From a virus, in UHGV virus genome UHGV-0186980: a DNA stretch of 44,857 bases; one strand, written 5' to 3'. Positions 8,137 to 43,165 of the stretch are shown in pieces. The notes beneath the pieces were generated by a model, which was given only the letters and a program-made list of their open reading frames with translations, was not told where the DNA came from and did not search any database. Each line of letters starts with the position of its first letter. Within the stretch, counting starts at the first letter, position 1. Position numbers and translations under genes: made by a program.

Positions 8137-8471
8137 GGTTTAAATCCCTGAATAAAAGTGGCTGAAAGTGAATAATTCCCGCCGCCCATCGGCACGGGCT
8201 TATATTGTTCACAACGGAATAGCCCCGCATCTTCAAGCGGCGGAGTCCACTGAAACGACTTTGTACCTGCATGCCGGTCCAGGAACTGTTTTATTGGTCG
8301 GATATACTCCTCAGTACCGACAAAACTCAACTCCCATTCCTGGGACCGGGTATTTAATCCGTCCCCTGAAACCTGCGTATACCCGTCACCAAATTCCGCC
8401 TTTCTGGTGCGAAACTTCACGGTTTGCGCAGGGTTTACCCGGGGACTCCAAGTGAATATCTCAATGGCCAT
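8133..8471 (-). CDS. M: Minor tail protein M
   Basis: 112 aa, FGDGYTQ and WTPP motifs as in lambda gpM; overlaps L start and H stop. Confidence 0.75.
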   Translation of the reverse strand: MAIEIFTWSPRVNPAQTVKFRTRKAEFGDGYTQVSGDGLNTRSQEWELSFVGTEEYIRPIKQFLDRHAGTKSFQWTPPLEDAGLFRCEQYKPVPMGGGNYSLSATFIQGFKP

Positions 8472-11400
8472 TAGCGTTGTCCTCTTACGGCGCTCCAGAT
8501 AGCGCCACCCGGGCGCATATCCTTCGCCTGCAGCTCACGATATTTTTTCTCGACGAACGACCCAATCTGCTGGCCAAACTCTTCAAACCCTGACGTGCTG
8601 TCAGTCGAGGTTTTGTCGCCAGAAATGGTGATCCAGACTTTTGGCCCTTCAACAGACGCTGAGGGCTGGCCGGATGCTGTCGCCCGGATGCCTGAAAACT
8701 CATCCGCGGCACGCGGCGCAGGTATCATCGGAGCCGCCCCCATTCCGGTGATCCCCTCTGCGCTTGTGCTGAAACCTGTTCCGACAAGACTTTGAATCGT
8801 GGTCAGAAGTGACTGTGTCGCCATATCAATCAGCCCCTTAATGACCGACAGGGCCGGGCCGGAGGACTGTTCACCAATGGCACGGACGCCCAGCGAACCA
8901 TCAGTCCCTCGGGTCAGTGGCATAATGGCCTCTGGACCAGCCTCACCAAATACCCCCGCGCCTTTGGCAAAGGCGAAGAGCTGCGGGGTGTCGTGGATCT
9001 GGTTGCTGTAGGCACTTAATGAAGGGGAATCGTAGACGCCACCTTTTGCGTTGAATTCCACCGTGGCTGCAGCGGCTTCATACGAACCGGACGGCGTATT
9101 TCCACCTCCTGCCGCACCTGCACTTCCTCCGATCGCACCGCCAAAAGCAGAACCGACCATGCCAAAAATACTCTGCAGTGCACTGGAAAGCGCGATACGC
9201 GTGGCAATTTGCGCCAAATCTGAAAGGATTGAAATAGTAAAGCTTTTGAAGCTTCCTTTACCGGTTATGGCAAAGGAAGCGAGGGAGCTTGCCATGCTGT
9301 CAAAGGCACTCGTGGTAAAGCTGGCTATCTGGCTGTTTGCATCCCGCGCATTATCTGTCCAGTTCTTCGCCCCACGCCTGAATCCCGCGCTGTAATCCTG
9401 TTCTGCTCTCAGACGATCCTGCACGCTTTGCTCGGTAATCTGCAGTTCCTGCTGCTTTATCCGCTCCAGATCGGCCAGACGGGCCTGATATTCAGCCGAT
9501 GTGGTATCGATAAAATCTTTCTCCAGCGCAATGCGCCGCTGATTAAAGCGGTTAATAATGGCGTTACGGGCTTCTGCGTCGCTAGCTTCCTGTTCGGAAA
9601 GGTTGTACTTCTCCAGATTCAGAGCAGCTTCGCGCTGCATAGCCTGAGCCTCTTCAGCCCACTTACGGCTTTCAGCCTGATATTTCAGCGAGGTTTTTCG
9701 CAAGACGGCTTCTTTTTCAAGCTGAATATTCGACTGCAGTTGCGCCCGGATCTGGTCCTGCATATTCACCAGGCTTTGCTGGCTTTTGGTCAGGTTTTCA
9801 CCCTTCAGCCCGGAGAGTTTTTCATTAAAGGCGACCAGCTGTCGTTCGGATTCTGTCAACGTATCAGTGGTCTGCGCCTGTTCTTTCAGTACTGCGTTTC
9901 GTTGCAGTGCCTGCTCCAGCATTCGCTGCCCTTCAGTCTCGCCGCTACCAGACTTTTTGGGTTTATCTTTCTTCGTGGCCTTGTCGTATTCATCATTAAT
10001 CCCTTTCAGGATCCGCTGATACTCCTGCGAGCCGGATGCGTAAATGCTGTTATTGAGTTTTTTTATCGCTGCAGCACGCTTTTCTGCTGCGGTACTCCCG
10101 GCATCCATGTAGCTCTTCAGCCCGGCAGCGTTTTTTATACGGTCACTTTGTGCCTCGGCGTATCCTGCTTTGCTTGTAGCGATAAAGCGGCGTGTCTTTT
10201 CGTCAAACTCTTTCTGGTCTTTAGTGAGGAGATCGGTCAAAGCAATGGTTTCACCAAGACTTCCGAGTATCCCCCACTCACGCCCAAGATTTTTTAACTT
10301 ATCAAGATAAGTTTCCGCGTGTGCCGCCAGCTCTTTCAGTTTAAAGCTTTCCGCATCAAGAGCTTGTTCCATGATGAGCTGCGTTGCTTTCGCTGTTTCC
10401 CCTTTATTCGTCAGGCTGATAACCTGTGCGACAATGGATTCATTCAGCGAAATGCCCTGGGCTGTCAGCTGGGCCATCGCATTAAGCGGGTCTCCCTTCA
10501 GGGCAGATATTTTGCTGACCAGATCCTCAGCGTTCCCACCGGCTTCAGCGTAGGCTGTCGCAATAAATGCAACTTCATGCAGCAATGCACCACTGAAACC
10601 ACCGTTTGCCGCAGCGACCACAGCAGAAAGGGAATGTTCTGTACCACCAAGCTGAGCATTGAGGCTTCTCAGTTCAGTGAGAGATAACTGAGCTGACGTT
10701 CTCGTTCCGAGTAGCGCCGCATTCAGTTTTTTTGTTTGCTCCTCGGATTTTTTAAACTCGCTGTAAATCATTGAGCCACCGGCAGCAAGCACCGACAGGC
10801 CAATACCAACAGGTCCACCCAGCAGACTCATCGCCGAACTAAGCGCCCGGCTGCTGGTCGCTGCAATACGCTGGGTCACAGTAAGCTGGGTATTTGCCGC
10901 AGCAGCAGCTTCTGTTGCTGCTGTTAGTGCCGCCTTTCCACCTGTTTCGGCGGCATCAGCGGTCACAACAACCGCTTTGGCGGCTTTTAATTTTTCAAGC
11001 CCGCTGGCCTCAAGACGGTTCGCTTCAATGATCGCCCGCTCATTCTTCAGGTGTTCATCCTGATAGCTGACATTCAGCCCGTACAGCTTATTAACTTCGG
11101 TTTGTTTCGCGTAATACTCGTCCAGCGCAATCGCCTGCTCACGCTGGGCCTGCGCTGCCGCTATCGTCTTTTCAGCGATAGCAGCTTTATTCAGCGCAGA
11201 CTGCCTTTCGGCCTGTGCCGCCGCAATTTGTGCCTTTGCCGCCGACTCCAGTTCGGCAGCTGCCTGACGGGCTGCATCCTGCTGTGTCTTCCAGCCTCCT
11301 GCCGAACTGTCAAGTCGCCCCTTTAAGGTATGAACGGCGGGGATAAGTGCATTAATTATGCTGCTGCTGGCGACATTACTCCCGGCTGCAACTTCATGAA

Positions 11401-11653
11401 GCACGAAGTTCAGTTGGCCAGCACCTCGGGTGGCACCGGCAAACTGATCATCATTAGCACCCTGCACGCCGATTTTTTTTGCGGCCTCGACGGTTTTGGC
11501 TATCGCTGTTGTCAGCTCGTTAGCCTGTGCTGTCGCCTGCTGATTAAATTTTTTACTGGCCTGCCCTGCGTTCTGATATGCCTCGGTAATTTGCGACCGG
11601 AATGCAGCTGAATTCAGATGCAGGGCAACCGATAAGCTGGCTACATCACTCAT
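8471..11653 (-). CDS. H: Tail tape measure protein
   Basis: 1060 aa, Ala/Gln-rich coiled-coil protein downstream of G/T. Confidence 0.85.
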   Translation of the reverse strand: MSDVASLSVALHLNSAAFRSQITEAYQNAGQASKKFNQQATAQANELTTAIAKTVEAAKKIGVQGANDDQFAGATRGAGQLNFVLHEVAAGSNVASSSIINALIPAVHTLKGRLDSSAGGWKTQQDAARQAAAELESAAKAQIAAAQAERQSALNKAAIAEKTIAAAQAQREQAIALDEYYAKQTEVNKLYGLNVSYQDEHLKNERAIIEANRLEASGLEKLKAAKAVVVTADAAETGGKAALTAATEAAAAANTQLTVTQRIAATSSRALSSAMSLLGGPVGIGLSVLAAGGSMIYSEFKKSEEQTKKLNAALLGTRTSAQLSLTELRSLNAQLGGTEHSLSAVVAAANGGFSGALLHEVAFIATAYAEAGGNAEDLVSKISALKGDPLNAMAQLTAQGISLNESIVAQVISLTNKGETAKATQLIMEQALDAESFKLKELAAHAETYLDKLKNLGREWGILGSLGETIALTDLLTKDQKEFDEKTRRFIATSKAGYAEAQSDRIKNAAGLKSYMDAGSTAAEKRAAAIKKLNNSIYASGSQEYQRILKGINDEYDKATKKDKPKKSGSGETEGQRMLEQALQRNAVLKEQAQTTDTLTESERQLVAFNEKLSGLKGENLTKSQQSLVNMQDQIRAQLQSNIQLEKEAVLRKTSLKYQAESRKWAEEAQAMQREAALNLEKYNLSEQEASDAEARNAIINRFNQRRIALEKDFIDTTSAEYQARLADLERIKQQELQITEQSVQDRLRAEQDYSAGFRRGAKNWTDNARDANSQIASFTTSAFDSMASSLASFAITGKGSFKSFTISILSDLAQIATRIALSSALQSIFGMVGSAFGGAIGGSAGAAGGGNTPSGSYEAAAATVEFNAKGGVYDSPSLSAYSNQIHDTPQLFAFAKGAGVFGEAGPEAIMPLTRGTDGSLGVRAIGEQSSGPALSVIKGLIDMATQSLLTTIQSLVGTGFSTSAEGITGMGAAPMIPAPRAADEFSGIRATASGQPSASVEGPKVWITISGDKTSTDSTSGFEEFGQQIGSFVEKKYRELQAKDMRPGGAIWSAVRGQR

Positions 11654-17261: not shown

Positions 17262-17353
17262 TTTTGCACCTGAAATGGCCTATGAATTATGCAGGTATAT
17301 TATCACTAAAATTGATGAAAGGGTGCCTGTAGCCAGCAAGACAACCACCTTAA

Positions 17354-18616
17354 TTAACGAGCCAGAATCGCTTCAATCTTAGCCAGTTGTTTTGCCGTCG
17401 GAATTTTATCGCCTGGCAGGATTTGATTGCTGTCGACCATGTTCAGTGGTGTCAGATATCTGTCCCCGCCCTCAATCGGCGGCAGGTTTTCCATGCGGCG
17501 AATATCGTTGGTCGATAACCAGCCCCACTGACGACCCAGCGCATATGACTCATAGCGCGATTTCTGGTCGCCACGCAGTAAGCCGGAAACGTTGAATTCG
17601 ATATACAAGTCGCGGCGTTCGCTGGCCAGCAATAAATCACGCTGCAGTGCCCCTTCATGGCGTTTCAGCCAGGCGAGGAGCGTATACATCACGAACTGCA
17701 GACCCTGATGCTCGATGTTGTTATTGGTCGCTTTCGCAAGCATTTGCACCATGTGTGGCGGGATTTTGTAGAGCCGACACACTTCCTCCACGCCCCACTG
17801 GCGCGATTGCAGCAGCTGTGCTTTCTCGTTGTCCTGCGACATCTGCTTGTAGCTCATTCCTTCTTGCAGCAGCGCCACAGAAAAGGCATTACGCATACCA
17901 GAATATCGGTCAGTCCATTTAGCCAGTAGCTGGTCTATCTTCTCCTGGCTCTTGATTGCCGGGGCGGCCTGTGGACGCTCGATAACGCCGCTCATCGTTG
18001 TTCCGCGCCGGAATGTGGCAGATGCATGCTCCTCCACTGCCAGATTCAGCCCGAGTACATCTGCGTTCGTCTGAATCGGTGAACTGCCGATATAGCCATC
18101 CAGAGAAAAGACTTTCACATGGTGCACCATGCGCATCGGTAACGTTTCACCGATGTCCGGGATTTCATAATAGGGCATCCCGTCCGGGCCTTTCAGAACA
18201 ATGACCTTTTTCGGGTTAATTGGGATGAGTTCTTTTGGGTAGCCTCTACCGTCACGGTCGATGATCGAGTAGCAATTGCCCTCCAGCCCCAGCAACCCCT
18301 GCTGCTGCTCAAAGTACTCAAATGAAGTGTCTTTTTTGTTTGGCTGAGAATGAATCAGGTCATAAATCGGGTGGTCTGTCGCACGTTGCCGCCCACCATT
18401 TTTATCTCGTCGATAGAGTTCGACAGGCAGCTGCGCGACGGACTCCGCCAGGAGGGTTACGCACGCACGAACAGCAGAAAGTGCAAGCGCCGTTTCCGGC
18501 GTAATCATGACACCGGCTTTACTGTGACTTGAACGGACACCACCCAGCATTGCTTCCCAGAATCCGCCACCTGATACCGACCGCTTTTTACCTTCAAACA
18601 TCTGGGGAATAAACAT
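17354..18616 (-). CDS. Portal protein (HK97-family)
   Basis: 420 aa, downstream of large terminase. Confidence 0.8.
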   Translation of the reverse strand: MFIPQMFEGKKRSVSGGGFWEAMLGGVRSSHSKAGVMITPETALALSAVRACVTLLAESVAQLPVELYRRDKNGGRQRATDHPIYDLIHSQPNKKDTSFEYFEQQQGLLGLEGNCYSIIDRDGRGYPKELIPINPKKVIVLKGPDGMPYYEIPDIGETLPMRMVHHVKVFSLDGYIGSSPIQTNADVLGLNLAVEEHASATFRRGTTMSGVIERPQAAPAIKSQEKIDQLLAKWTDRYSGMRNAFSVALLQEGMSYKQMSQDNEKAQLLQSRQWGVEEVCRLYKIPPHMVQMLAKATNNNIEHQGLQFVMYTLLAWLKRHEGALQRDLLLASERRDLYIEFNVSGLLRGDQKSRYESYALGRQWGWLSTNDIRRMENLPPIEGGDRYLTPLNMVDSNQILPGDKIPTAKQLAKIEAILAR

Positions 18617-18795
18617 TATTTCTCCCCGCTATTTTTTGCGCTGGCGGATACCGAGCGCGCGATTAAAAAAGACCAAAGCAGACAGAGTATTCCGCCTGTG
18701 ATAAACCCCGCTGCAGGTAATAAAAGCCAGGCTCCGGTAGAAACCAATAAAGCCCCGGCAAGGCCAATAATGAAACTCAGAATTGTGATTAGCAC
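18616..18795 (-). CDS. Possible small membrane protein (59 aa, GTG start), translationally coupled between terminase and portal
   Basis: GTG overlapping terminase 3' end; product VLITILSFIIGLAGALLVSTGAWLLLPAAGFITGGILCLLWSFLIARSVSASAKNSGEK; TAATG overlap with portal start; below track length threshold. Confidence 0.3.
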   Translation of the reverse strand: MLITILSFIIGLAGALLVSTGAWLLLPAAGFITGGILCLLWSFLIARSVSASAKNSGEK

Positions 18796-20510
18796 GCTAC
18801 GTCTTCCTCATCATAGATAGATTTGATGACTGCGCTGTTCAACATGGCGCGCCCTATCCCCATCATTAAACCAACCGCACCATCAATCTTGTTTTGTTTC
18901 CCCTCCTTTGTCGGACGGACAATATCGTCGCTGCCCGGCAAATACCGACCTACAACGTTCTGGATGCACCAGTTCATGATGGGATTTCCGTCATGATGGA
19001 ATCGCCCCGACGCCAGTGCAGCTTCAATCTCTCTCATGGGGTCGCTCATATGGGTGAAGTTCTGTCTGATTTCGACGGGTTCCAGTCCCTCTTCCTCAAG
19101 CAGATGGCGCAAGGAAGTGGCACCATAAGGATCGATAGGACACTGGGCGATTTTCACGTTCTGACGTAACTGCAGGATGGATTCGAAAATCAGCCGATAA
19201 TCTACTTCTGCGCCCTCAGTTGGAATTAAAACGCCCTGTCCCACAAAGGACTGATAACGTTCAGAGGTATGCTTAAGCTTCGGGTCGACAGAATAGATGG
19301 TGTCTTCAGGCACCCAGAACATAGGGCCTACGCAGTAGAAATGGGTAATACCTTCTATATCGCGACGAAAAACAGGAATAACGGCGTTAAGATCGACCTT
19401 TGACGCTAGATCTATTCCCAGCCAGCATTCCTCATCGGCAAAATCAGACAATTTCAGACTCTTGTCAGCAGCAGCCATCCATTTCTGTAAATCGTAAAAG
19501 ACTGTTTTTGCGCTAACCCAACGATTAAAATGCTTGGTCAGGATCTTGTTGGTCTGACTGGGGTTCGATATCGCCAGTAACTGTTTTGCGCGAAGAAAGT
19601 GCTCTTTTACCGATATCCCATAATTGGGATTGGCTTTAATGAGCGCTTCCGGCTGAGTCCAGTCATCATCATCATCCAGACCATAGATGATGCCGAAAAT
19701 GCCCTCATTCTCTTCCCCATTGCGGGTTTTGCGCAGGATCTCCACCACCTGTTCCCGCTTCTCATAGCACGGCGATGTAATGTCATAACCGGCTGTCGTG
19801 ATGATGAGCGTAATGGGTTGCTCGCGAGCCCCCATCCCTGTCGTCATCGTGGTATACAGGGCATCGGTAATATGTTCGTGGTATTCGTCGATAATGGCGC
19901 ATGACGGCGAATCACCGTCACCGGGATCGCCAATCACGGGTGCAAATATGGAGCCATCCGGGCGAGTCATTTTTTTTGCCCAGGGCTTTATAGAAAATTT
20001 CTGCCGCAATGCGGGCAGCTTTTTCACCATCAACAACGCCGGAGCAAACACTTTCCAGGCCTGCTTTTCGGTCGTGGCGCCGCAGTACACTTCCGCACCA
20101 TGTTCACCGTCAGCGCAGAACATATAATTGCCAACGGCAGCGGCAATTGCTGATTTGCCGTTCTTTCTAGGAACTTCGATATAGATCTCAGTGAACCGCC
20201 GCAGGCCACTTTTTTTATTTACCCAGCCAAACGGAACACCCAGGGCAAACTTTTGCCAGGGTTCAAATTCTATCCTGAGTTTTCGGCGGGCCCATTCCCC
20301 TGCGGTATGTGGCATTTTTTGTGCAAAACGAAGAAATCGCTCTGCCTTATTTTTATCGAACCGGTAAGGCCAGTTCGGATCCTTCGCGCGTTCCAGGTCA
20401 TCAAGATGTCGCTTGCAGGCAAGAATAGTTAACTGACATGCCAGAATCTTCCCGCCAACGATATCCCGTGCATACTGGTTCGCCGCATTGACGTTCGGAT
20501 ATGTGGCCAT
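18789..20510 (-). CDS. Terminase large subunit
   Basis: 573 aa; ATPase N-terminal region and nuclease C-terminal region; upstream of portal. Confidence 0.85.
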   Translation of the reverse strand: MATYPNVNAANQYARDIVGGKILACQLTILACKRHLDDLERAKDPNWPYRFDKNKAERFLRFAQKMPHTAGEWARRKLRIEFEPWQKFALGVPFGWVNKKSGLRRFTEIYIEVPRKNGKSAIAAAVGNYMFCADGEHGAEVYCGATTEKQAWKVFAPALLMVKKLPALRQKFSIKPWAKKMTRPDGSIFAPVIGDPGDGDSPSCAIIDEYHEHITDALYTTMTTGMGAREQPITLIITTAGYDITSPCYEKREQVVEILRKTRNGEENEGIFGIIYGLDDDDDWTQPEALIKANPNYGISVKEHFLRAKQLLAISNPSQTNKILTKHFNRWVSAKTVFYDLQKWMAAADKSLKLSDFADEECWLGIDLASKVDLNAVIPVFRRDIEGITHFYCVGPMFWVPEDTIYSVDPKLKHTSERYQSFVGQGVLIPTEGAEVDYRLIFESILQLRQNVKIAQCPIDPYGATSLRHLLEEEGLEPVEIRQNFTHMSDPMREIEAALASGRFHHDGNPIMNWCIQNVVGRYLPGSDDIVRPTKEGKQNKIDGAVGLMMGIGRAMLNSAVIKSIYDEEDVAC

Positions 20511-20944
20511 CAGTCAAACTCATCAAATTCATTCCCGTCATCGTCCTGATCATTTTTGCCGCTGGTCATTCGGATACGGCTGAGCGGATCTAACCCCAGT
20601 AGCGAGCCCAGACGGGCTATCTGGGAAACAGAGTCATTTCTGACGTTTACGGCAGGATGTTTTTTTAACCCTCCCATTTCGCTTTCAGTTGTCAGCCCGT
20701 TAGCCAGTAATTTTTCGGCTTCGAGCATCAGATGGAAGGCGTTGCAGTAAGCCAGAAGTAAAGGGGCATCTTCAAGCTCAAAAACGCCTCTTTCGATCAG
20801 GATTTTACTTTGAGTCTTCCATATTCTTATAGCCGCCTCCCCCATCAACTCAGCCGGGGGCGCGATTCGGGTCAGTTTACTTTTTTGCCCGGTGGGTAAA
20901 ACGGGTTTTCTTCCCCCTCCAGACGATCTAATACCAGCAGCCAT
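20510..20944 (-). CDS. Terminase small subunit (P27-like)
   Basis: 144 aa, acidic C-terminus, overlaps TerL start (ATGA). Confidence 0.6.
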   Translation of the reverse strand: MAAGIRSSGGGRKPVLPTGQKSKLTRIAPPAELMGEAAIRIWKTQSKILIERGVFELEDAPLLLAYCNAFHLMLEAEKLLANGLTTESEMGGLKKHPAVNVRNDSVSQIARLGSLLGLDPLSRIRMTSGKNDQDDDGNEFDEFD

Positions 20945-21081
20945 AACTCCTCTTTTGATAGGTGAAACCTGCCGGAAAAAAGATCCTTATTTCTGGCGTG
21001 TAAAAATGTCCTTCAAGCGGCAGTCCCAAAGCGCGAAAGGGGTCAGGGATTTGATCCCCCCTACCCCTGGCGGCAGCTGCC

Positions 21082-21294
21082 TCAGTCGAGGTGGAAGTCG
21101 TCATTCAGGTTGCGCCGACGACCGCTGCTCGCGTTGTGTGGGCAGGCACTCGAGTTATGCCCGGACTGACCGCAATAACTGCAGCGCAAATTGGCGCGAC
21201 GTGAGGAACCACCCCACGTTTTCGGGCAGTTCGCGTATGTATGAAGCTGTGAACCGCAATAAGTACAGCGGGTATAACCCATCATGCCCTCCAT
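21082..21294 (-). CDS. Small protein with two CX2CX4HX4C zinc-knuckle motifs
   Basis: RCTYCGSQLHTYANCP and RCSYCGQSGHNSSACP. Confidence 0.5.
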   Translation of the reverse strand: MEGMMGYTRCTYCGSQLHTYANCPKTWGGSSRRANLRCSYCGQSGHNSSACPHNASSGRRRNLNDDFHLD

Positions 21295-21755: not shown

Positions 21756-22052
21756 TTAATGGCTCCGGTTACGGTTGCGATTTTTATTGCGGTTACGCTG
21801 ATGGCGCGGTGCGGTTTCGGCTGGCAGGTGCTCGCCTTCGAACGCTTGCGCTGGCTCTTGCGGTTGCGGTTGCGGTTGAGCGGGAACCAGTCCCTCGGGA
21901 ATTTCACCACCTACCTCAAACTTGAGATGCGGTTCTTTCCCCAAGAAATGGCTGAAGTTCAGGCCCGATAGTCCTGCATTGAGCATCGAGATCCCCTCGA
22001 CATCAACGGTAACGAGTTGGCCATCAACGTATTCAATTTTTAAATTCTTCAT
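21756..22052 (-). CDS. Hypothetical protein with Pro/Gln-rich and basic NRNKNRNRNR tail (start refined to ATG 22052)
   Basis: MKNLKIEYVDGQLVTV...; ATGA overlap with HNH stop. Confidence 0.45.
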   Translation of the reverse strand: MKNLKIEYVDGQLVTVDVEGISMLNAGLSGLNFSHFLGKEPHLKFEVGGEIPEGLVPAQPQPQPQEPAQAFEGEHLPAETAPRHQRNRNKNRNRNRSH

Positions 22053-22411
22053 CGTGTTCTCTCTGTTGCGGTTTTCGTTCTGTGGCACGGCCAGCACAAC
22101 GATTCCAGATTGTAATTGTCATCAGTACCGCCGTGGGCTTTAGGAATGATGTGGTCGACGCTGGTAGCTTTTGTGGCGATACCGTGGCGTCGGCAGTTCT
22201 GGCAAAGGTATTTGTCGCGCACGAGTATCTGGGCACGAATGATTTCCCAGGAACGACCGTATCCGCGTTGCTGTCGGGTTTTTCCGGTCTGATAGTTACG
22301 CCAGCCATCGCCAGTGTGTTGCTGCCGATGGATCTCGCAGTATCTAGTGGCGTCATTCGTCACTGCCGCGCATCCTCTGTGCCGGCAAGGTCGTTTAGCT
22401 CGTGGTGGCAT
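22049..22411 (-). CDS. HNH endonuclease (terminase-associated)
   Basis: VDHIIPKAHGG...NLESLCWPCH HNH motif; start refined to MPPRAKRP (track start is upstream junk). Confidence 0.8.
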   Translation of the reverse strand: MPPRAKRPCRHRGCAAVTNDATRYCEIHRQQHTGDGWRNYQTGKTRQQRGYGRSWEIIRAQILVRDKYLCQNCRRHGIATKATSVDHIIPKAHGGTDDNYNLESLCWPCHRTKTATERTR

Positions 22412-22556
22412 ACACATCCTCAAGCATGAATTTGGAGAGAGTAAAAGCGGCACTGTCGATGGGGAACTCTGAAACTGGCAACGATGCGAATGACAAATCG
22501 TCATACGAAATCACCACCAGCTTCCCTCCTACGTATTCAATTTTTAAGCTCTTCAT
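22395..22556 (-). pseudogene. Short paralogous copy (53 codons) of the N-terminus of the 21756..22052 gene, upstream of HNH
   Basis: MKSLKIEYVGGKLVVI... vs MKNLKIEYVDGQLVTV...; 24-nt near-identical DNA at 22533-22556 and 22029-22052. Confidence 0.35.
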
Positions 22557-25298: not shown

Positions 25299-25529
25299 TT
25301 ATCTTGCTCCCTTCTCTGTAAGCTGCGGGCAGTTGGCCTGCACGGATTTGTTGTACGCCAAGATGTCGCGCTTCGTCTGCTTATCCAGCACGTCAATATC
25401 GCGGTCAGTGAGATAGATAATTTTCGCCCACAGGCACCCTGTATCAACGACCACCGGGGCGGGTGAATTGCTCGCGCAGCTCACGATCAACATCGTCATC
25501 AGGCATATGGCTAACAGTCTGCTGTACAT
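25299..25529 (-). CDS. o-spanin (Rz1-like outer-membrane lipoprotein), overlapping the 3' end of the i-spanin gene
   Basis: MYSRLLAICLMTMLIVSCAS lipobox; alternate frame overlapping Rz-like gene. Confidence 0.6.
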   Translation of the reverse strand: MYSRLLAICLMTMLIVSCASNSPAPVVVDTGCLWAKIIYLTDRDIDVLDKQTKRDILAYNKSVQANCPQLTEKGAR

Positions 25530-25722
25530 CACTGGCCTCCCTGGTGGCTTCCTCTTTCCGTTCTGCCGCAGCGACTCTGGCGGCGGCATCCTCTTCTGTA
25601 CGTTTCTTCTCAGATTCCGCTACGGCTTTTTCACGACCGCTCATTCTGCCCAAACCAAATACACCCATGAGCAGAAGAACTGCCGCAGTGAGAAATGCCA
25701 GAATGGCTTTAATTTGCGTCAT
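25444..25722 (-). CDS. i-spanin (Rz-like)
   Basis: N-terminal TM helix then charged coiled coil; directly downstream of endolysin. Confidence 0.65.
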   Translation of the reverse strand: MTQIKAILAFLTAAVLLLMGVFGLGRMSGREKAVAESEKKRTEEDAAARVAAAERKEEATREASDVQQTVSHMPDDDVDRELREQFTRPGGR

Positions 25723-26261
25723 AGCTTCACTCGCTCTTTCACCCAGCCATAAACGAACGACTCATTAGCCGAGCGCTGTTCAGCCAGTTCAAGATACCTT
25801 TGGCCCTGGCTGCAATTGAGAGCGCGCAGCAGCACTTCTTCACCTTCCTTACCCCGGGTATTCAGATAGGATTTCAAAGCATTGATGCTACGGGGTCCAA
25901 TCTGCCCGTCAGCAATAAGATCTGGATAAAGTTTCTGTTGATTGTTGAAAACGTTCAGCCAGCGCTGGAACCATTTCACCTGAACAGATGGCCCCATATT
26001 TACGCCTGTATCGCACAACTCTGCCGCAATTGATGGAGAAACTGTCGCAACCAGGTCAAAGCGCGGCCCATACCAGTAATCGGCTGAAAGGATATCCAGA
26101 GCCTGCTGACGAGTCAGATCACGCATATCGCCTGAATAACCATGGGCACGGGCAACGGCCTGAGTAATCCCCCAGTTAGTTGGACCACCCTTGTCGTTTG
26201 GATTGTTAACATAGCCACCCTCTTTACCGAGGATGCTGTTGAAAATATCTTCTTTAGTCAT
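25719..26261 (-). CDS. Endolysin (GH108-type lysozyme with peptidoglycan-binding domain)
   Basis: N-terminus MTKEDIFNSILGKEGGYVNNPNDKGGPTNWGIT typical of GH108 family as remembered. Confidence 0.75.
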   Translation of the reverse strand: MTKEDIFNSILGKEGGYVNNPNDKGGPTNWGITQAVARAHGYSGDMRDLTRQQALDILSADYWYGPRFDLVATVSPSIAAELCDTGVNMGPSVQVKWFQRWLNVFNNQQKLYPDLIADGQIGPRSINALKSYLNTRGKEGEEVLLRALNCSQGQRYLELAEQRSANESFVYGWVKERVKL

Positions 26262-26539
26262 TAATCCCTCAGTACATCAATCAGGCGCGCCACATTCCCT
26301 CTAAACCAGAGAACCGCAGCGCAGATAAGTATGTTCCCCAGCACCACCAGCCAGTTCGCTGACTCGTAAAGGCCGAACAGGAAACGAAATGGAATGCTGG
26401 CATACACCAGCACCATGAGATAAGCGATGATCGAAATTCCCGGGCGATGCCGCGCGCCATCACGCCGATAGAACATCAGGATCAGCACAATAACCGCACA
26501 AATCACAGCATTCACCAGAGCCGCCGGATTATTTACCAC
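26261..26539 (-). CDS. Holin/antiholin-like membrane protein
   Basis: 92 aa with 2-3 hydrophobic helices, immediately upstream of endolysin. Confidence 0.55.
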   Translation of the reverse strand: MVNNPAALVNAVICAVIVLILMFYRRDGARHRPGISIIAYLMVLVYASIPFRFLFGLYESANWLVVLGNILICAAVLWFRGNVARLIDVLRD

Positions 26540-26918
26540 TGGAGCCTCCTCCCCGTAGCCGGGTCAGCATACTGAACAAGCTATTCAGGTCCTGGCTATT
26601 TAGAAAAGTCAGCACCTTAATGATCAACGCAGAAATAATGACCGCACCCAGCGCATCAAGCGGGCGTTCTCTGTAACCGGTCCACACCGCTAACTTTGCC
26701 CCAAGCAAACCAGCGCCAAGTACGCCAACAATAAATGACGTAACGAAGTATGCTGCCAGACGCTTGCGGGTAATATCGGCCGCAGTTGCAACGTAAAACA
26801 CGGCACCGGCAAAAGCACCGAACACAACGCCATAATCAATTCCGGTTACCATGCCGAAAATACTGGCGCCCATGAGCCCGGCGGTCGCTATGGCAGTACC
26901 AGAAACAGGTTCGGACAT
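26529..26918 (-). CDS. Putative holin (multi-TM membrane protein)
   Basis: 129 aa, Gly/Ala-rich TM helices, first gene of lysis cassette. Confidence 0.55.
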   Translation of the reverse strand: MSEPVSGTAIATAGLMGASIFGMVTGIDYGVVFGAFAGAVFYVATAADITRKRLAAYFVTSFIVGVLGAGLLGAKLAVWTGYRERPLDALGAVIISALIIKVLTFLNSQDLNSLFSMLTRLRGGGSSGK

Positions 26919-41983: not shown

Positions 41984-43165
41984 ATGGCAGCAAGGCCAAG
42001 AAAAAGGGAATACCGCCATCTACCTGATTATCTAATATTTGATAAAGATCGCGGCGTTTATAAATTCACCTTAATTACAGGGAAGAAAAAGAACATTGGG
42101 AAAGATCGGGCTATAGCCATCGCTATTGCGCGCGAATACAACCTCAGAATGCGGCAGGCAAATGCTCCGTCAGTTGAATTGCTTATCCGTGATTCTGGCG
42201 GCGTGTCGGGTGAAGCTAAACCTTTTGCCGAGCATGTTGATCACATCATGGCGCGTGCGATTGAAAATGAACGTCCGTCGCAAAATACGCTTGATGACTG
42301 GAACAACGACGCACTAAGGGTGAAGGAATTCTTTAGCAACATACCAGCTTGCGATATTGAGCTGGAGCATGTGAACGCCTACATAAAGCATTACCACTCA
42401 GATTCATCAGCGAACGTACAAAACCGGAAGGTCAGCTTCCTTAAAAAATTGTTCTCGTATGCGGTCGATGAATCATTGATGTTTGATAATCCTGCTACAC
42501 GCAAAAAAATGCGAAGAACCGAAGAGAAGAAACGCCAGCGTCTTTCACTCGATAACTTTAAAGCCATTCGTCGGGCCGCCGAACCCTGGTTACGCACCGC
42601 GATGGATTTAGCATTACAGACGACGCACGCTCGCCTTGAAGTGTCTAGGATTCGGTATTCAATTCGTGAACCTAAGAACGGTATTTGTGGTTGTGTATGG
42701 CTCGAACAGCCAGAAGATGGCATATATGGAACGCTTTACATCCATCGTCAAAAGGTACAAAAGAAGGAAGCATCGCACGTTGCGATTCCAATTGGGGATG
42801 AGCTAAAGCGCATAATTGATGAAAGTAGGGATAACGTAGCTAGTCCGTTTGTTGTTCATCGGATTCCGGAGCGACAGGTTAAACGCAGTAAAGAAGTTTC
42901 ACACCCAACTCAAGTTGCGCCTGACTATCTTAGTCGCTCGTTCTCCTCGTTACGCGATGAGCTAGGGCTTTGTGATCATCTTGCGATGGACGAACGCCCT
43001 ACATTTCACGAGATCAGAGCCCTTGCAGCACATTTGTTTAATAGCCAAGGAATCGATCCTCAAGGCAGAATGGCTCACAGTGATGCAAAATCAACAAAGA
43101 TTTATACTCAAAACCACATTGATTGGATCGTCGTTCCACACGGGGAAATTAAATACAATGCATAA
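41984..43165 (+). CDS. int: Tyrosine integrase
   Basis: 393 aa; C-terminal HEIRALAAHL...AHSDAKSTKIYTQNH catalytic region. Confidence 0.9.
   Translation: MAARPRKREYRHLPDYLIFDKDRGVYKFTLITGKKKNIGKDRAIAIAIAREYNLRMRQANAPSVELLIRDSGGVSGEAKPFAEHVDHIMARAIENERPSQNTLDDWNNDALRVKEFFSNIPACDIELEHVNAYIKHYHSDSSANVQNRKVSFLKKLFSYAVDESLMFDNPATRKKMRRTEEKKRQRLSLDNFKAIRRAAEPWLRTAMDLALQTTHARLEVSRIRYSIREPKNGICGCVWLEQPEDGIYGTLYIHRQKVQKKEASHVAIPIGDELKRIIDESRDNVASPFVVHRIPERQVKRSKEVSHPTQVAPDYLSRSFSSLRDELGLCDHLAMDERPTFHEIRALAAHLFNSQGIDPQGRMAHSDAKSTKIYTQNHIDWIVVPHGEIKYNA

What the first reader, a model, noticed from the sequence alone, without database searches (positions are those of the whole stretch)
18616..18795. Possible 59-aa membrane peptide coupled between terminase and portal
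A GTG-initiated ORF overlapping the terminase stop encodes two hydrophobic helices and ends in TAATG with the portal start. It falls below the ORF-track length threshold and could be a real small protein or a chance ORF.
Basis: seen in the sequence. Interest (0 to 1): 0.25.

Follow-up and report, generated by a model that had tools for sequence, protein, structure and literature searches.

The report
Conserved small membrane protein before portal

Summary
The ORF runs from GTG at 18795 to TAA at 18616 (59 aa). Its start overlaps the TerL stop (GTGCTAA) and its stop overlaps the portal start (TAATG).

It is a real gene:
- All 84 loci with a close portal relative keep the frame intact, with ATG or GTG at the same position.
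- Variable sites per codon position are 31/18/52.
- pN/pS is 0.33 in frame and 1.1-1.5 out of frame.
- dN/dS is about 0.19 at dS about 1 (p = 9e-7).

It matches PHROG 502 "membrane protein" (E = 9e-18). Homologues include phiKO2 gp3, phiP27 L37, ST64B Sb3 and E. coli YmfR, which is found in 1385 of 5426 complete E. coli genomes. An identical protein is already in NCBI as "hypothetical protein".

A profile search finds 813 cluster representatives. In 9 of 11 sampled, the gene lies directly upstream of an HK97-type portal gene. HK97 and phi1026b lack it, so it is accessory.

It is predicted to be an N-in/C-in hairpin with near-invariant Gly, Trp and Pro. The prophage has a separate full lysis cassette.

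Function is untested. My best guess (about 0.3) is an inner-membrane factor linked to portal or prohead assembly.

Verdict: an ordinary, already known family. Low interest.

The parts
18616..18795 (-). Small ORF (59 codons plus stop): YmfR / PHROG 502 family membrane protein
   Evidence: ORF list and sequence. PHROG 502 E = 8.6e-18. 100% identical to the NCBI K. oxytoca protein QY077_05695. Intact in 84 of 84 related loci. Coding signature in this frame only.
18789..18795 (-). GTGCTAA: start codon of the small ORF overlapping the last TerL codon and the TerL stop
   Evidence: Sequence. The same position carries ATG in 65 related loci and GTG in 19. The A/G difference is the synonymous third base of TerL's penultimate Ala codon.
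18802..18809 (-). Shine-Dalgarno-like GAGGAAGA, 7-14 nt upstream of the GTG, encoded by the TerL C-terminal ..DEED.. codons
   Evidence: Sequence. GA(T/C)GAGGAAGA is present in nearly all 84 related loci. That it acts as a ribosome-binding site is inferred.
18724..18792 (-). Predicted helix 1 (residues 2-24), with the G11xxG14 motif, G21 and W23
   Evidence: AlphaFold2 helix 2-24. Hydropathy. G11, G14, G21 and W23 are near-invariant in 193 family members.
18658..18717 (-). Predicted helix 2 membrane part (residues 27-46), starting P27-A-A-G30-F and containing G34-G35
   Evidence: AlphaFold2 helix 27-56. P27/P28, G30 and G35 are near-invariant.
18619..18657 (-). Polar, basic C-terminal tail (R47..K59), predicted cytoplasmic; its last codons double as the portal ribosome-binding site
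   Evidence: R47 is conserved (R or K in 144 of 193) and the rest is poorly conserved. GGGGAG at 18627-18622 lies 5 nt before the portal ATG. Relatives carry GGAGGT or GGGGGT at the same place.
18614..18618 (-). TAATG stop/start overlap with the portal gene
   Evidence: Sequence. The same overlap is present in 82 of 84 related loci; 2 lost the stop and run 22 nt into the portal gene.
18789..20510 (-). Large terminase subunit gene (upstream neighbour)
   Evidence: Pfam TerL_ATPase 4e-30 and TerL_nuclease 8e-34.
17354..18616 (-). HK97-type portal gene (downstream neighbour, translationally coupled)
   Evidence: TIGR01537 portal_HK97 E = 5.8e-76.

Best explanation
SHOWN or strongly supported (confidence about 0.9, which is the number given below). 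The ORF is a genuine protein-coding late gene of an integrated HK97-like siphovirus prophage of Klebsiella oxytoca. It encodes a 59-aa member of the YmfR / PHROG 502 family, whose members include phiKO2 gp3, phiP27 L37, ST64B Sb3 and E. coli e14 YmfR. The protein is a helical hairpin of two hydrophobic helices joined by a very tight turn (G21-A-W23 ... P27). Both ends are predicted to be cytoplasmic. The gene sits in the TerS-TerL-X-portal-protease-capsid operon with no promoter or terminator of its own. Its start overlaps the TerL stop and its stop overlaps the portal start. It is therefore most likely translated by termination-reinitiation, and ribosomes leaving it are delivered to the portal start.

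INFERRED (confidence about 0.3; not included in the number below). The hairpin inserts into the inner membrane and oligomerises through its glycine-rich helix faces. During late infection it acts as a non-essential accessory of the portal or prohead step. For example, it may hold or nucleate the portal ring at the membrane, or bring the coupled portal cistron to the membrane. This would be analogous in principle to membrane-bound portal initiation in T4, which depends on gp40 (PMC9958956). No experiment on any family member was found.
For: Real gene:
- 84 of 84 loci with a portal at least 88% identical keep the frame; 82 have the same 59-codon length.
- The start is ATG in 65 loci and GTG in 19, at the same position.
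- In 35 distinct sequences, variable sites per codon position are 31/18/52. pN/pS is 0.33 in frame, against 1.09 and 1.45 in the other two frames. Both of those frames, and two of the three antisense frames, carry stops in every sequence.
- dN/dS is 0.19 at dS 1.0 against phage KpLi5 (Fisher p = 9e-7) and 0.27 against ST846.

Family:
- PHROG 502 E = 8.6e-18. All tested homologues hit the same PHROG.
- tblastn finds it in 46 phage records, in the TerL-portal slot in every record inspected, across gamma- and alpha-proteobacterial phages.
- RefSeq names the E. coli homologue ymfR, in 1385 of 5426 complete genomes.
- A profile search finds 813 50%-identity cluster representatives, the 150 listed being 49-122 aa.

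Link to the portal:
- In 9 of 11 sampled distant members a PF04860 portal gene follows directly, usually with stop/start overlap. This holds even where extra small genes separate X from TerL.
- Against phiKO2, identity jumps from about 60% to 92-97% exactly at the TerL stop / X start, so X travels with the portal there.

Membrane hairpin and topology:
- No charged residue in positions 1-46. AlphaFold2 helices 2-24 and 27-56, pLDDT 73.
- G11, G14, G21, W23, G30 and G35 are near-invariant. P27/P28 and R47 are conserved.
- Distant members have R-D or long basic stretches before helix 1 (positive-inside rule at both ends).

Oligomer: natural tandem duplications of the hairpin exist (P0065, P0145, P0164).

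Not a moron or the holin:
- GC is 47.8%, against 49.7% for TerL and 53.0% for portal.
- No promoter-like site is adjacent.
- A complete lysis cassette lies elsewhere: two holin-family genes, an endolysin and two spanins at 25299-26918.
Against: Nothing contradicts the gene call. Translation and membrane insertion were not measured here, and I found no experimental paper on any member.

Against the inferred portal-assembly role:
- HK97 and phi1026b have related head modules with TerL and portal overlapping directly and no such gene. It cannot be a general requirement of HK97-type portals.
- The conserved residues all lie inside the membrane or in the turn. The only cytoplasmic part is a 13-residue, poorly conserved tail whose end is constrained by the portal ribosome-binding site. 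There is therefore no obvious conserved surface for binding a cytoplasmic portal.
- Mosaic junctions do not always keep X with the portal. Between KpLi5 and ST846 the junction lies about 60 nt inside the portal gene and X goes with TerL.
- No solved phage structure contains a chain of this family.
Confidence: 0.9

Rival explanations
1. Accessory lysis-timing or membrane-permeabilising protein (holin-like or antiholin-like). The hairpin accumulates in the inner membrane late in infection and modulates hole formation or the proton-motive force.
For: It has the size, the two hydrophobic helices, the predicted N-in/C-in topology, the glycine-rich helix faces and the short basic C-terminal tail that are general hallmarks of class II holins (the holin hallmarks are from general knowledge). 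It is expressed from the late operon. From general knowledge, T7 shows that lysis genes can sit among packaging genes.
Against: The prophage already has a complete lysis cassette about 6.5 kb away: PHROG 198 and 217 holins, an endolysin and Rz/Rz1-like spanins. There is no Pfam or PHROG holin match even at E up to 10. Across the family the gene is tied to the portal gene, not to endolysins.
Confidence: 0.15
2. Superinfection-exclusion or host-takeover membrane protein. It blocks an inner-membrane route of DNA entry or a host membrane protein. This is what the PHROG category label 'moron, auxiliary metabolic gene and host takeover' suggests.
For: The conserved residues are intramembrane, which suits an interaction with host membrane proteins. 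The PHROG category label points this way. From general knowledge, known exclusion proteins such as T4 Imm and HK97 gp15 are small inner-membrane proteins.
Against: It is not built like a moron. It overlaps both neighbours and has no adjacent promoter-like site. The terminator-like hairpins that do fall inside it come from T-rich Leu/Phe codons. Its GC content is unremarkable. It would be expressed late in lytic growth and not from the prophage. There is no PADLOC match. The strict position before the portal across hundreds of lineages is unexplained by this role.
Confidence: 0.15
3. Only the act of translating the ORF matters. It would be a coupling bridge that sets the portal:TerL ratio, or an SRP substrate that drags the late mRNA to the membrane. 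The peptide itself has no specific partner.
For: Both junctions are classic coupling overlaps, conserved in 82 of 84 loci. The C-terminal codons encode the portal ribosome-binding site. The ORF evolves about three times faster at non-synonymous sites than its neighbours (dN/dS 0.19-0.27 against 0.03-0.08).
Against: HK97 and phi1026b couple TerL directly to the portal without a bridge. Specific residues (G11, G14, G21, W23, P27, G30, G35, R47) are near-invariant from Klebsiella to Azospirillum phages and in 193 family members. That is more than a generic hydrophobic or spacer requirement.
Confidence: 0.1
4. Virion-associated ejection or pilot peptide. It would be packaged near the portal and inserted into the next host's inner membrane to help DNA entry.
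For: The gene is adjacent to the portal and lies in the head-gene operon. It has membrane-inserting character.
Against: No chain of this family occurs in any solved structure, including phage particles. A 46-residue uncharged hairpin with no soluble domain would be hard to keep soluble in a capsid (inference). No proteomic report was found.
Confidence: 0.05
5. Chance ORF in a non-coding spacer between TerL and portal.
For: A 59-codon open frame arises in 6% of shuffles of this sequence. The ORF is short and starts with GTG.
Against: The frame is intact in 84 of 84 relatives despite dS of about 1. Variation is dominated by the third codon position. pN/pS is 0.33 in this frame only. The amino-acid motif is conserved in alpha- and gamma-proteobacterial phages.
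Confidence: 0.01

Closest known systems
Klebsiella phage phiKO2 gp3 (YP_006583.1, 'membrane protein')
   Same: 91.5% identical and also 59 aa. It has the same GTG start overlapping the TerL stop and the same stop/start overlap with the portal. X and portal DNA are 92-97% identical to the window.
   Different: phiKO2 is a linear plasmid prophage, whereas the window is an integrated prophage with an integrase. The TerL genes are only about 60% identical, so the module boundary lies exactly at the start of X. Neither protein has been studied experimentally, as far as I could find.
E. coli e14 prophage YmfR, phage phiP27 L37 and Salmonella ST64B Sb3 (60 aa, 'membrane protein')
   Same: They share PHROG 502 (E = 4e-28 for L37). 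They are 44% identical to the window protein over 57 residues and carry the same GAW..P.AGF..G..CL.WS motif. They occupy the same slot between TerL and the HK97-type portal.
   Different: They start with ATG 11 nt after the TerL stop and do not overlap it. They are paired with a different prohead protease type. The function is equally unknown: a search for 'ymfR' returned 13 papers, none about the gene by title or abstract.
PHROG 7105 (e.g. Salmonella phage F1055 gp3, 52 aa)
   Same: It is a sister family in the same TerL-portal slot, overlapping both neighbours. It has a similar D-x-A-G-x-A-G ... A-G-G ... L-L-W motif. The two PHROGs cross-hit weakly.
   Different: It is shorter and more divergent. 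The window protein matches it only at E = 0.64.
Phage T4 gp40 and membrane-bound gp20 portal initiation
   Same: This is a precedent for a phage-encoded factor needed to assemble a portal initiator attached to the inner membrane (PMC9958956). That is the kind of role inferred here from the strict coupling to the portal gene.
   Different: No sequence relationship was tested or is expected. The phage type and portal family differ. T4 gp40 is required for portal assembly, whereas this gene is absent from HK97 and phi1026b. This is an analogy only.
Class II holins / pinholins (two-TMD holins such as phage 21 S; general knowledge)
   Same: They are small, with two hydrophobic helices, predicted N-in/C-in topology, glycine-rich helices and a short charged C-terminal tail.
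   Different: There is no sequence match to any holin family. The gene is not next to an endolysin. The prophage has its own holin-endolysin-spanin cassette.

Membership tests
YmfR / PHROG 502 small phage membrane protein | Significant match to the family profile | tested here: met
   phrog_502 E = 8.6e-18, residues 1-53 on profile positions 3-55 of 58. Homologues from nine other sources hit the same profile.
YmfR / PHROG 502 small phage membrane protein | Length about 50-65 aa with two hydrophobic helices and a tight turn | tested here: met
   59 aa. No charge in residues 1-46. AlphaFold2 helices 2-24 and 27-56. Family median length is 61 aa.
YmfR / PHROG 502 small phage membrane protein | Conserved motif G-L-A-G ... 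G-A-W-L ... P-x-A-G-F-I-x-G-G ... R | tested here: met
   The window protein has G11, G14, G21, W23, P27, G30, G35 and R47, the positions that are near-invariant in 193 members.
YmfR / PHROG 502 small phage membrane protein | Gene lies directly upstream of an HK97-type (PF04860) portal gene and downstream of TerL | tested here: met
   Window: TerL 20510..18789, X 18795..18616, portal 18616..17354. The same order holds in the phage records and in 9 of 11 sampled distant members.
YmfR / PHROG 502 small phage membrane protein | Protein is made and inserted in the inner membrane | not testable with these tools
   Only prediction is available, and no experimental paper was found.
Class II holin / pinholin | Two transmembrane helices, N-in/C-in, charged C-terminal tail | tested here: inconclusive
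   The predicted architecture fits. It is generic for small hairpin membrane proteins, and the topology was not measured.
Class II holin / pinholin | Sequence membership in a holin family | tested here: not met
   No holin family appears among the Pfam hits at E up to 10 or the PHROG hits.
Class II holin / pinholin | Located in the lysis cassette next to the endolysin | tested here: not met
   The lysis cassette is at 25299-26918. This gene is at 18616-18795, between TerL and the portal.
Lambda gpW head-tail joining protein (name given to homologues in some automated annotations) | Homology to gpW, a soluble head-completion protein | tested here: not met
   No gpW family appears in the Pfam or PHROG results. 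The protein is almost entirely hydrophobic. The name appears to be positional only.
Moron-type superinfection-exclusion gene | Autonomous expression unit (own promoter and terminator, deviant composition), expressed from the prophage | tested here: not met
   It overlaps both neighbours. No promoter-like site is adjacent. GC is 47.8%, against 49.7% and 53.0% in the neighbours. There is no PADLOC match.
T4 gp40-like portal assembly factor (functional class) | Required for, or stimulates, assembly of the membrane-attached portal initiator | not testable with these tools
   This is an inference from gene coupling only. The precedent is described in PMC9958956.

The most novel reading that the evidence does not exclude
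The hairpin oligomerises into a ring or patch in the inner membrane. Supporting hints are the glycine-zipper faces and the natural tandem-fused dimers. This assembly would serve as the membrane platform on which the co-translated HK97-type portal dodecamer is nucleated, or would bring the late mRNA to the membrane through co-translational insertion. If so, head assembly in a large group of temperate proteobacterial phages would start at the membrane, as it does in T4. That would give a function to YmfR, a protein of unknown function present in about a quarter of complete E. coli genomes.
Probability: 0.2. Interest if true: 0.55.

Novelty: already known. Interest (0 to 1): 0.2.

Why it matters
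For this window it settles an annotation question. The ORF that fell below the length threshold is a real gene and should be kept, and TerL, X and the portal form one translationally coupled unit.

More broadly, the family is large: 813 cluster representatives, and ymfR in 1385 of 5426 complete E. coli genomes. It is tied to the portal gene, yet no experiment on it was found. A simple deletion in an inducible model phage such as ST64B, phiP27 or a phiKO2-like phage could assign a function to a very common prophage gene. The finding itself adds no new kind of element.

Tried and rejected
- **Family and structure searches.** Pfam, NCBIfam, PADLOC, a PDB sequence profile, Rfam and Foldseek against PDB and BFVD gave nothing significant. 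The weak Pfam hits (ATP-synt_I, 8xMP, RseC; E = 0.17-0.67) are generic hairpin similarities and were not used.
- **Locus searches with the 59-aa protein.** The search for related loci on GTDB genomes found patterns, but none was confirmed by tblastn. The 22-sequence alignment was too variable to search with. I switched to the portal protein as the query.
- I rebuilt it as A2.
- **Literature.** Searches for phiKO2 gene 3, ST64B sb3, ymfR and small membrane proteins near portal genes found no functional study. The phiKO2 genome paper is not held. The gonococcal 'holin' NGO0488 is unrelated in position.
- **Frameshift fusion.** I considered a TerL-X fusion by programmed frameshifting. I rejected it because X's frame has two stops five codons upstream of the GTG, and there is no slippery heptamer in the last TerL codons.
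- **Other-strand gene.** I considered a gene on the other strand. One antisense frame is open in 31 of 35 sequences, but the substitution pattern fits only the sense frame.
- **Tandem-duplicated member.** A single-sequence AlphaFold2 model of P0145 was low confidence (pLDDT 62) and showed only two hairpins.
- **Uninformative locus.** L016 (Selenomonadaceae) has a truncated portal and could not be used.
Full report
**1. What is in the sequence**

The finding's coordinates are right, but the gene is on the minus strand. The ORF runs from GTG at 18795-18793 to TAA at 18618-18616. It encodes MLITILSFIIGLAGALLVSTGAWLLLPAAGFITGGILCLLWSFLIARSVSASAKNSGEK (59 aa).

The upstream gene, 20510..18789, is a large terminase (TerL_ATPase and TerL_nuclease). 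The downstream gene, 18616..17354, is an HK97-type portal (TIGR01537, E = 6e-76).

- The string GTGCTAA holds the ORF's start and the TerL stop.
- The string TAATG holds the ORF's stop and the portal start.
- A GAGGAAGA stretch formed by TerL's C-terminal ..DEED.. codons lies 7-14 nt before the GTG.
- The ORF's last codons (GGG GAG AAA) form the portal's Shine-Dalgarno sequence.

Residues 1-46 have no charged residue, and GRAVY is 1.35. On its own the ORF is not compelling: 6% of shuffles of its interior stay open.

**2. Context**

The window is an integrated siphovirus-type prophage. It carries:

- an integrase at 41984-43165 and a tape-measure gene at 8471-11653;
- an S49 prohead protease and an HK97-fold capsid protein;
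- a P27-family small terminase;
- an HNH endonuclease at 22504..22049.

A protein 100% identical to the ORF product is in NCBI as a Klebsiella oxytoca chromosomal 'hypothetical protein', QY077_05695.

The prophage has a complete lysis cassette elsewhere: PHROG 198 and 217 holins, an endolysin and two Rz-like spanins at 25299-26918.

**3. Is it a real gene?**

I used the window's portal protein to collect 84 loci with portals 88-100% identical (4 from GTDB genomes, 80 from IMG/VR). All 84 keep an intact ORF in the same frame.

- 82 loci have 59 codons and end in TAATG. Two lost the stop and run 22 nt into the portal gene.
- The start is ATG in 65 loci and GTG in 19, at the same nucleotide. The A/G difference is the silent third base of TerL's penultimate Ala codon.

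Among 35 distinct 180-nt sequences:

- Variable sites per codon position are 31, 18 and 52.
- Summed pN/pS is 0.33 in the ORF's frame, against 1.09 and 1.45 in the two other sense frames.
- Both of those frames contain stops in every sequence.

| Comparison (Nei-Gojobori) | Small ORF dN/dS | Notes |
|---|---|---|
| Window vs phiKO2 | 0.20 | portal 0.063 |
| Window vs KpLi5 | 0.19 | dS 1.0, the same dS as the adjacent portal; TerL 0.082, portal 0.061; Fisher p = 9e-7 |
| Window vs ST846phi9.1 | 0.27 | TerL 0.026, portal 0.062 |

The only disrupted copy, in phage Kpn74, lies in a record whose portal is also split into three ORFs. I read that as sequence error.

**4. What family is it?**

The protein matches PHROG 502, 'membrane protein' (E = 8.6e-18). 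It matches no Pfam, NCBIfam, PADLOC, PDB or Rfam entry.

tblastn finds homologues in 46 phage records. In each record I inspected, the gene lies between TerL and the portal:

- phiKO2 gp3: 91.5% identical, annotated 'membrane protein';
- other Klebsiella phages: about 75% and 55% identical;
- Yersinia PY54: present but unannotated;
- phiP27 L37 and ST64B Sb3: 44% identical;
- the SfI, SfII and SfIV group;
- Marinobacter AS1, Stutzerimonas PG1 and the alpha-proteobacterial Azospirillum phage Cd.

In RefSeq E. coli genomes the phiP27-type homologue is named ymfR. It occurs in 1385 of 5426 complete genomes, flanked by TerL and the portal in 11 of the 12 records listed.

A profile search of 1.84 billion cluster representatives gives 813 hits at E <= 1e-3; the 150 listed are 49-122 aa long. 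PHROG 7105 (Salmonella phage F1055, 52 aa) is a sister family in the same slot. A PHROG 4810 ORF in Vibrio phage Her, also in that slot, matches both families only weakly (E 0.02-0.08).

**5. Anatomy of the protein**

AlphaFold2 with an 18-sequence alignment gives two helices, 2-24 and 27-56 (pLDDT 73).

In 193 family members:

- The near-invariant positions are G11, G14, G21, W23, G30 and G35.
- P27/P28, A29, F31, I32 and R47 are strongly conserved.
- The C-terminal tail is variable.

Most distant members have R-D just before helix 1. Some have long basic, coiled-coil-like N-terminal extensions (P0113, P0163). By the positive-inside rule, both ends are cytoplasmic and the W-containing turn sits at the periplasmic interface.

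Three of the 150 listed representatives are tandem duplications of the whole hairpin (P0065, P0145, P0164). Together with the small-residue faces, this suggests the unit works as a parallel oligomer. That is an inference.

**6. Link to the portal**

I looked up the genomic context of 11 distant representatives.

- In 9, a PF04860 portal gene follows directly, mostly with stop/start overlap. This includes two cases where one or two extra small genes separate X from TerL (L097, L104).
- One contig ends too early to tell (L115).
- One has no recognisable portal (L100).

Against phiKO2, identity in 100-nt windows jumps from about 60% across TerL to 92-97% exactly at the TerL stop / X start, and stays high through the portal. 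Between phiP27 and ST64B, a 96-98% identical block covers X plus the first ~170 nt of the portal. Between KpLi5 and ST846, however, the junction lies about 60 nt inside the portal, and X goes with TerL. Co-inheritance with the portal is therefore frequent but not absolute.

HK97 and Burkholderia phi1026b have TerL and the portal overlapping directly with no such gene. The gene is an accessory, not a core part of HK97-type head assembly.

**7. How it most likely works**

Shown:

- It is a conserved coding gene in the late head operon.
- It is tightly overlapped with both neighbours.
- It encodes a hydrophobic hairpin.

Inferred from the overlaps: translation by termination-reinitiation after TerL, with hand-over of ribosomes to the portal start.

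Inferred from sequence: inner-membrane insertion, N-in/C-in topology, and oligomerisation.

The function is not known from any experiment I could find. I rank the possibilities as follows.

| Possible role | Confidence | Main points |
|---|---|---|
| Portal- or prohead-linked membrane accessory | about 0.3 | Tethers or nucleates the portal at the membrane, or localises the coupled portal cistron there. Analogous in principle to T4, where the gp20 portal initiator assembles on the inner membrane with the help of gp40 (PMC9958956). |
| Holin-like lysis-timing factor | 0.15 | The architecture fits, but there is a separate lysis cassette and no homology to holins. |
| Late superinfection-exclusion or host-membrane effector | 0.15 | The gene is not built like a moron. 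|
| Translation-only bridge or mRNA membrane-targeting signal | 0.1 | Specific residues are too conserved, and HK97 needs no bridge. |
| Virion ejection peptide | 0.05 | No supporting data. |
| Chance ORF | 0.01 | Excluded by the comparative data. |

The main weakness of the first option is that all conserved residues lie within the membrane. The only cytoplasmic part is a short, variable tail.

**8. Comparison with known families, and novelty**

The protein passes every testable membership criterion for the YmfR / PHROG 502 family: profile match, size and architecture, motif and synteny. It fails the criteria for holin families, for lambda gpW (a name some pipelines give to homologues purely by position) and for moron-type exclusion genes.

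The exact protein and its family are already in public databases, and close homologues are annotated as membrane proteins. The finding is therefore already known as a gene. The open question is its function.

**9. Verdict**

The feature is an ordinary, already annotated small phage gene of unknown function. Interest is 0.2.

The most novel reading not excluded is a membrane platform for portal nucleation in HK97-like temperate phages. I give it a probability of about 0.2 and moderate interest if true.

Noticed in passing
window 21082-21294 (-): A 70-aa ORF between the HNH endonuclease region and the small terminase carries two C-x2-C-x4-H-x4-C motifs (CTYCGSQLHTYANC and CSYCGQSGHNSSAC). These are retroviral-type CCHC zinc knuckles, which seem unusual for a phage packaging region. 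The only hits are weak and below cutoff: Pfam zf-C2H2_10 and PHROG 9083.
   Followed up: partly
window 18789-20510 versus L001 (phiKO2): A sharp mosaic junction. The window's TerL is only about 60% identical to phiKO2 TerL in DNA, while identity jumps to 92-97% exactly at the TerL stop / small-ORF start and continues through the portal. The window's TerL instead resembles that of Klebsiella phage ST846-OXA48phi9.1, at 77-88%.
   Followed up: yes
L012 (Limoniibacter endophyticus KCTC 42097, 52-kb contig) and L015 (Microbacterium barkeri, 584-bp contig): Assemblies of unrelated bacteria contain portal genes 89-94% identical to this Klebsiella prophage portal. The 52-kb contig has the size of a phiKO2-like phage-plasmid. 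This is probably contamination of those assemblies.
   Followed up: no
2 of the 84 related loci; also proteins P0025 and P0028: In these copies the TAATG stop is lost, and the small ORF runs 22 nt into the portal gene, giving a 65-aa product ending ..GGDDVYSPDV. The coupling overlap is therefore not absolutely required.
   Followed up: partly
window 18616-18795, + strand (e.g. ORF 18698-18820, 40 aa): One antisense frame of the small gene is free of stops in 31 of 35 distinct homologous sequences. The substitution pattern does not support coding there, so this is most likely a by-product of the Leu/Gly/Ala-rich sense codons.
   Followed up: partly
window 17300-21100, especially 18676-18767 (-): There is an excess of terminator-like hairpin-plus-T-run matches (14 found against 3.6 expected), and six of them lie inside the 180-nt small ORF. 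They are probably caused by T-rich Leu/Phe codons and are not real terminators inside an operon.
   Followed up: no
L004 (Klebsiella phage Kpn74, OQ790078.1): The deposited record has frameshifts in the small ORF, and its portal is split into three CDSs. This points to sequencing or assembly errors in that record, not to gene decay.
   Followed up: partly
L100 / L101 (metagenome contigs encoding P0065): A tandem-duplicated family member (102 aa, two hairpins) sits in a module with an S78 protease but no recognisable TerL or PF04860 portal. The neighbouring ORFs of 161, 320 and 100 aa have no Pfam match. This is the one exception to the portal adjacency among 11 sampled contexts.
   Followed up: partly
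window 26261-26918 (-): Two adjacent holin-family genes (PHROG 198, 129 aa; PHROG 217, 92 aa) precede the endolysin and the nested or overlapping Rz-like spanin pair. This may be a holin/antiholin or two-component holin arrangement.
   Followed up: no
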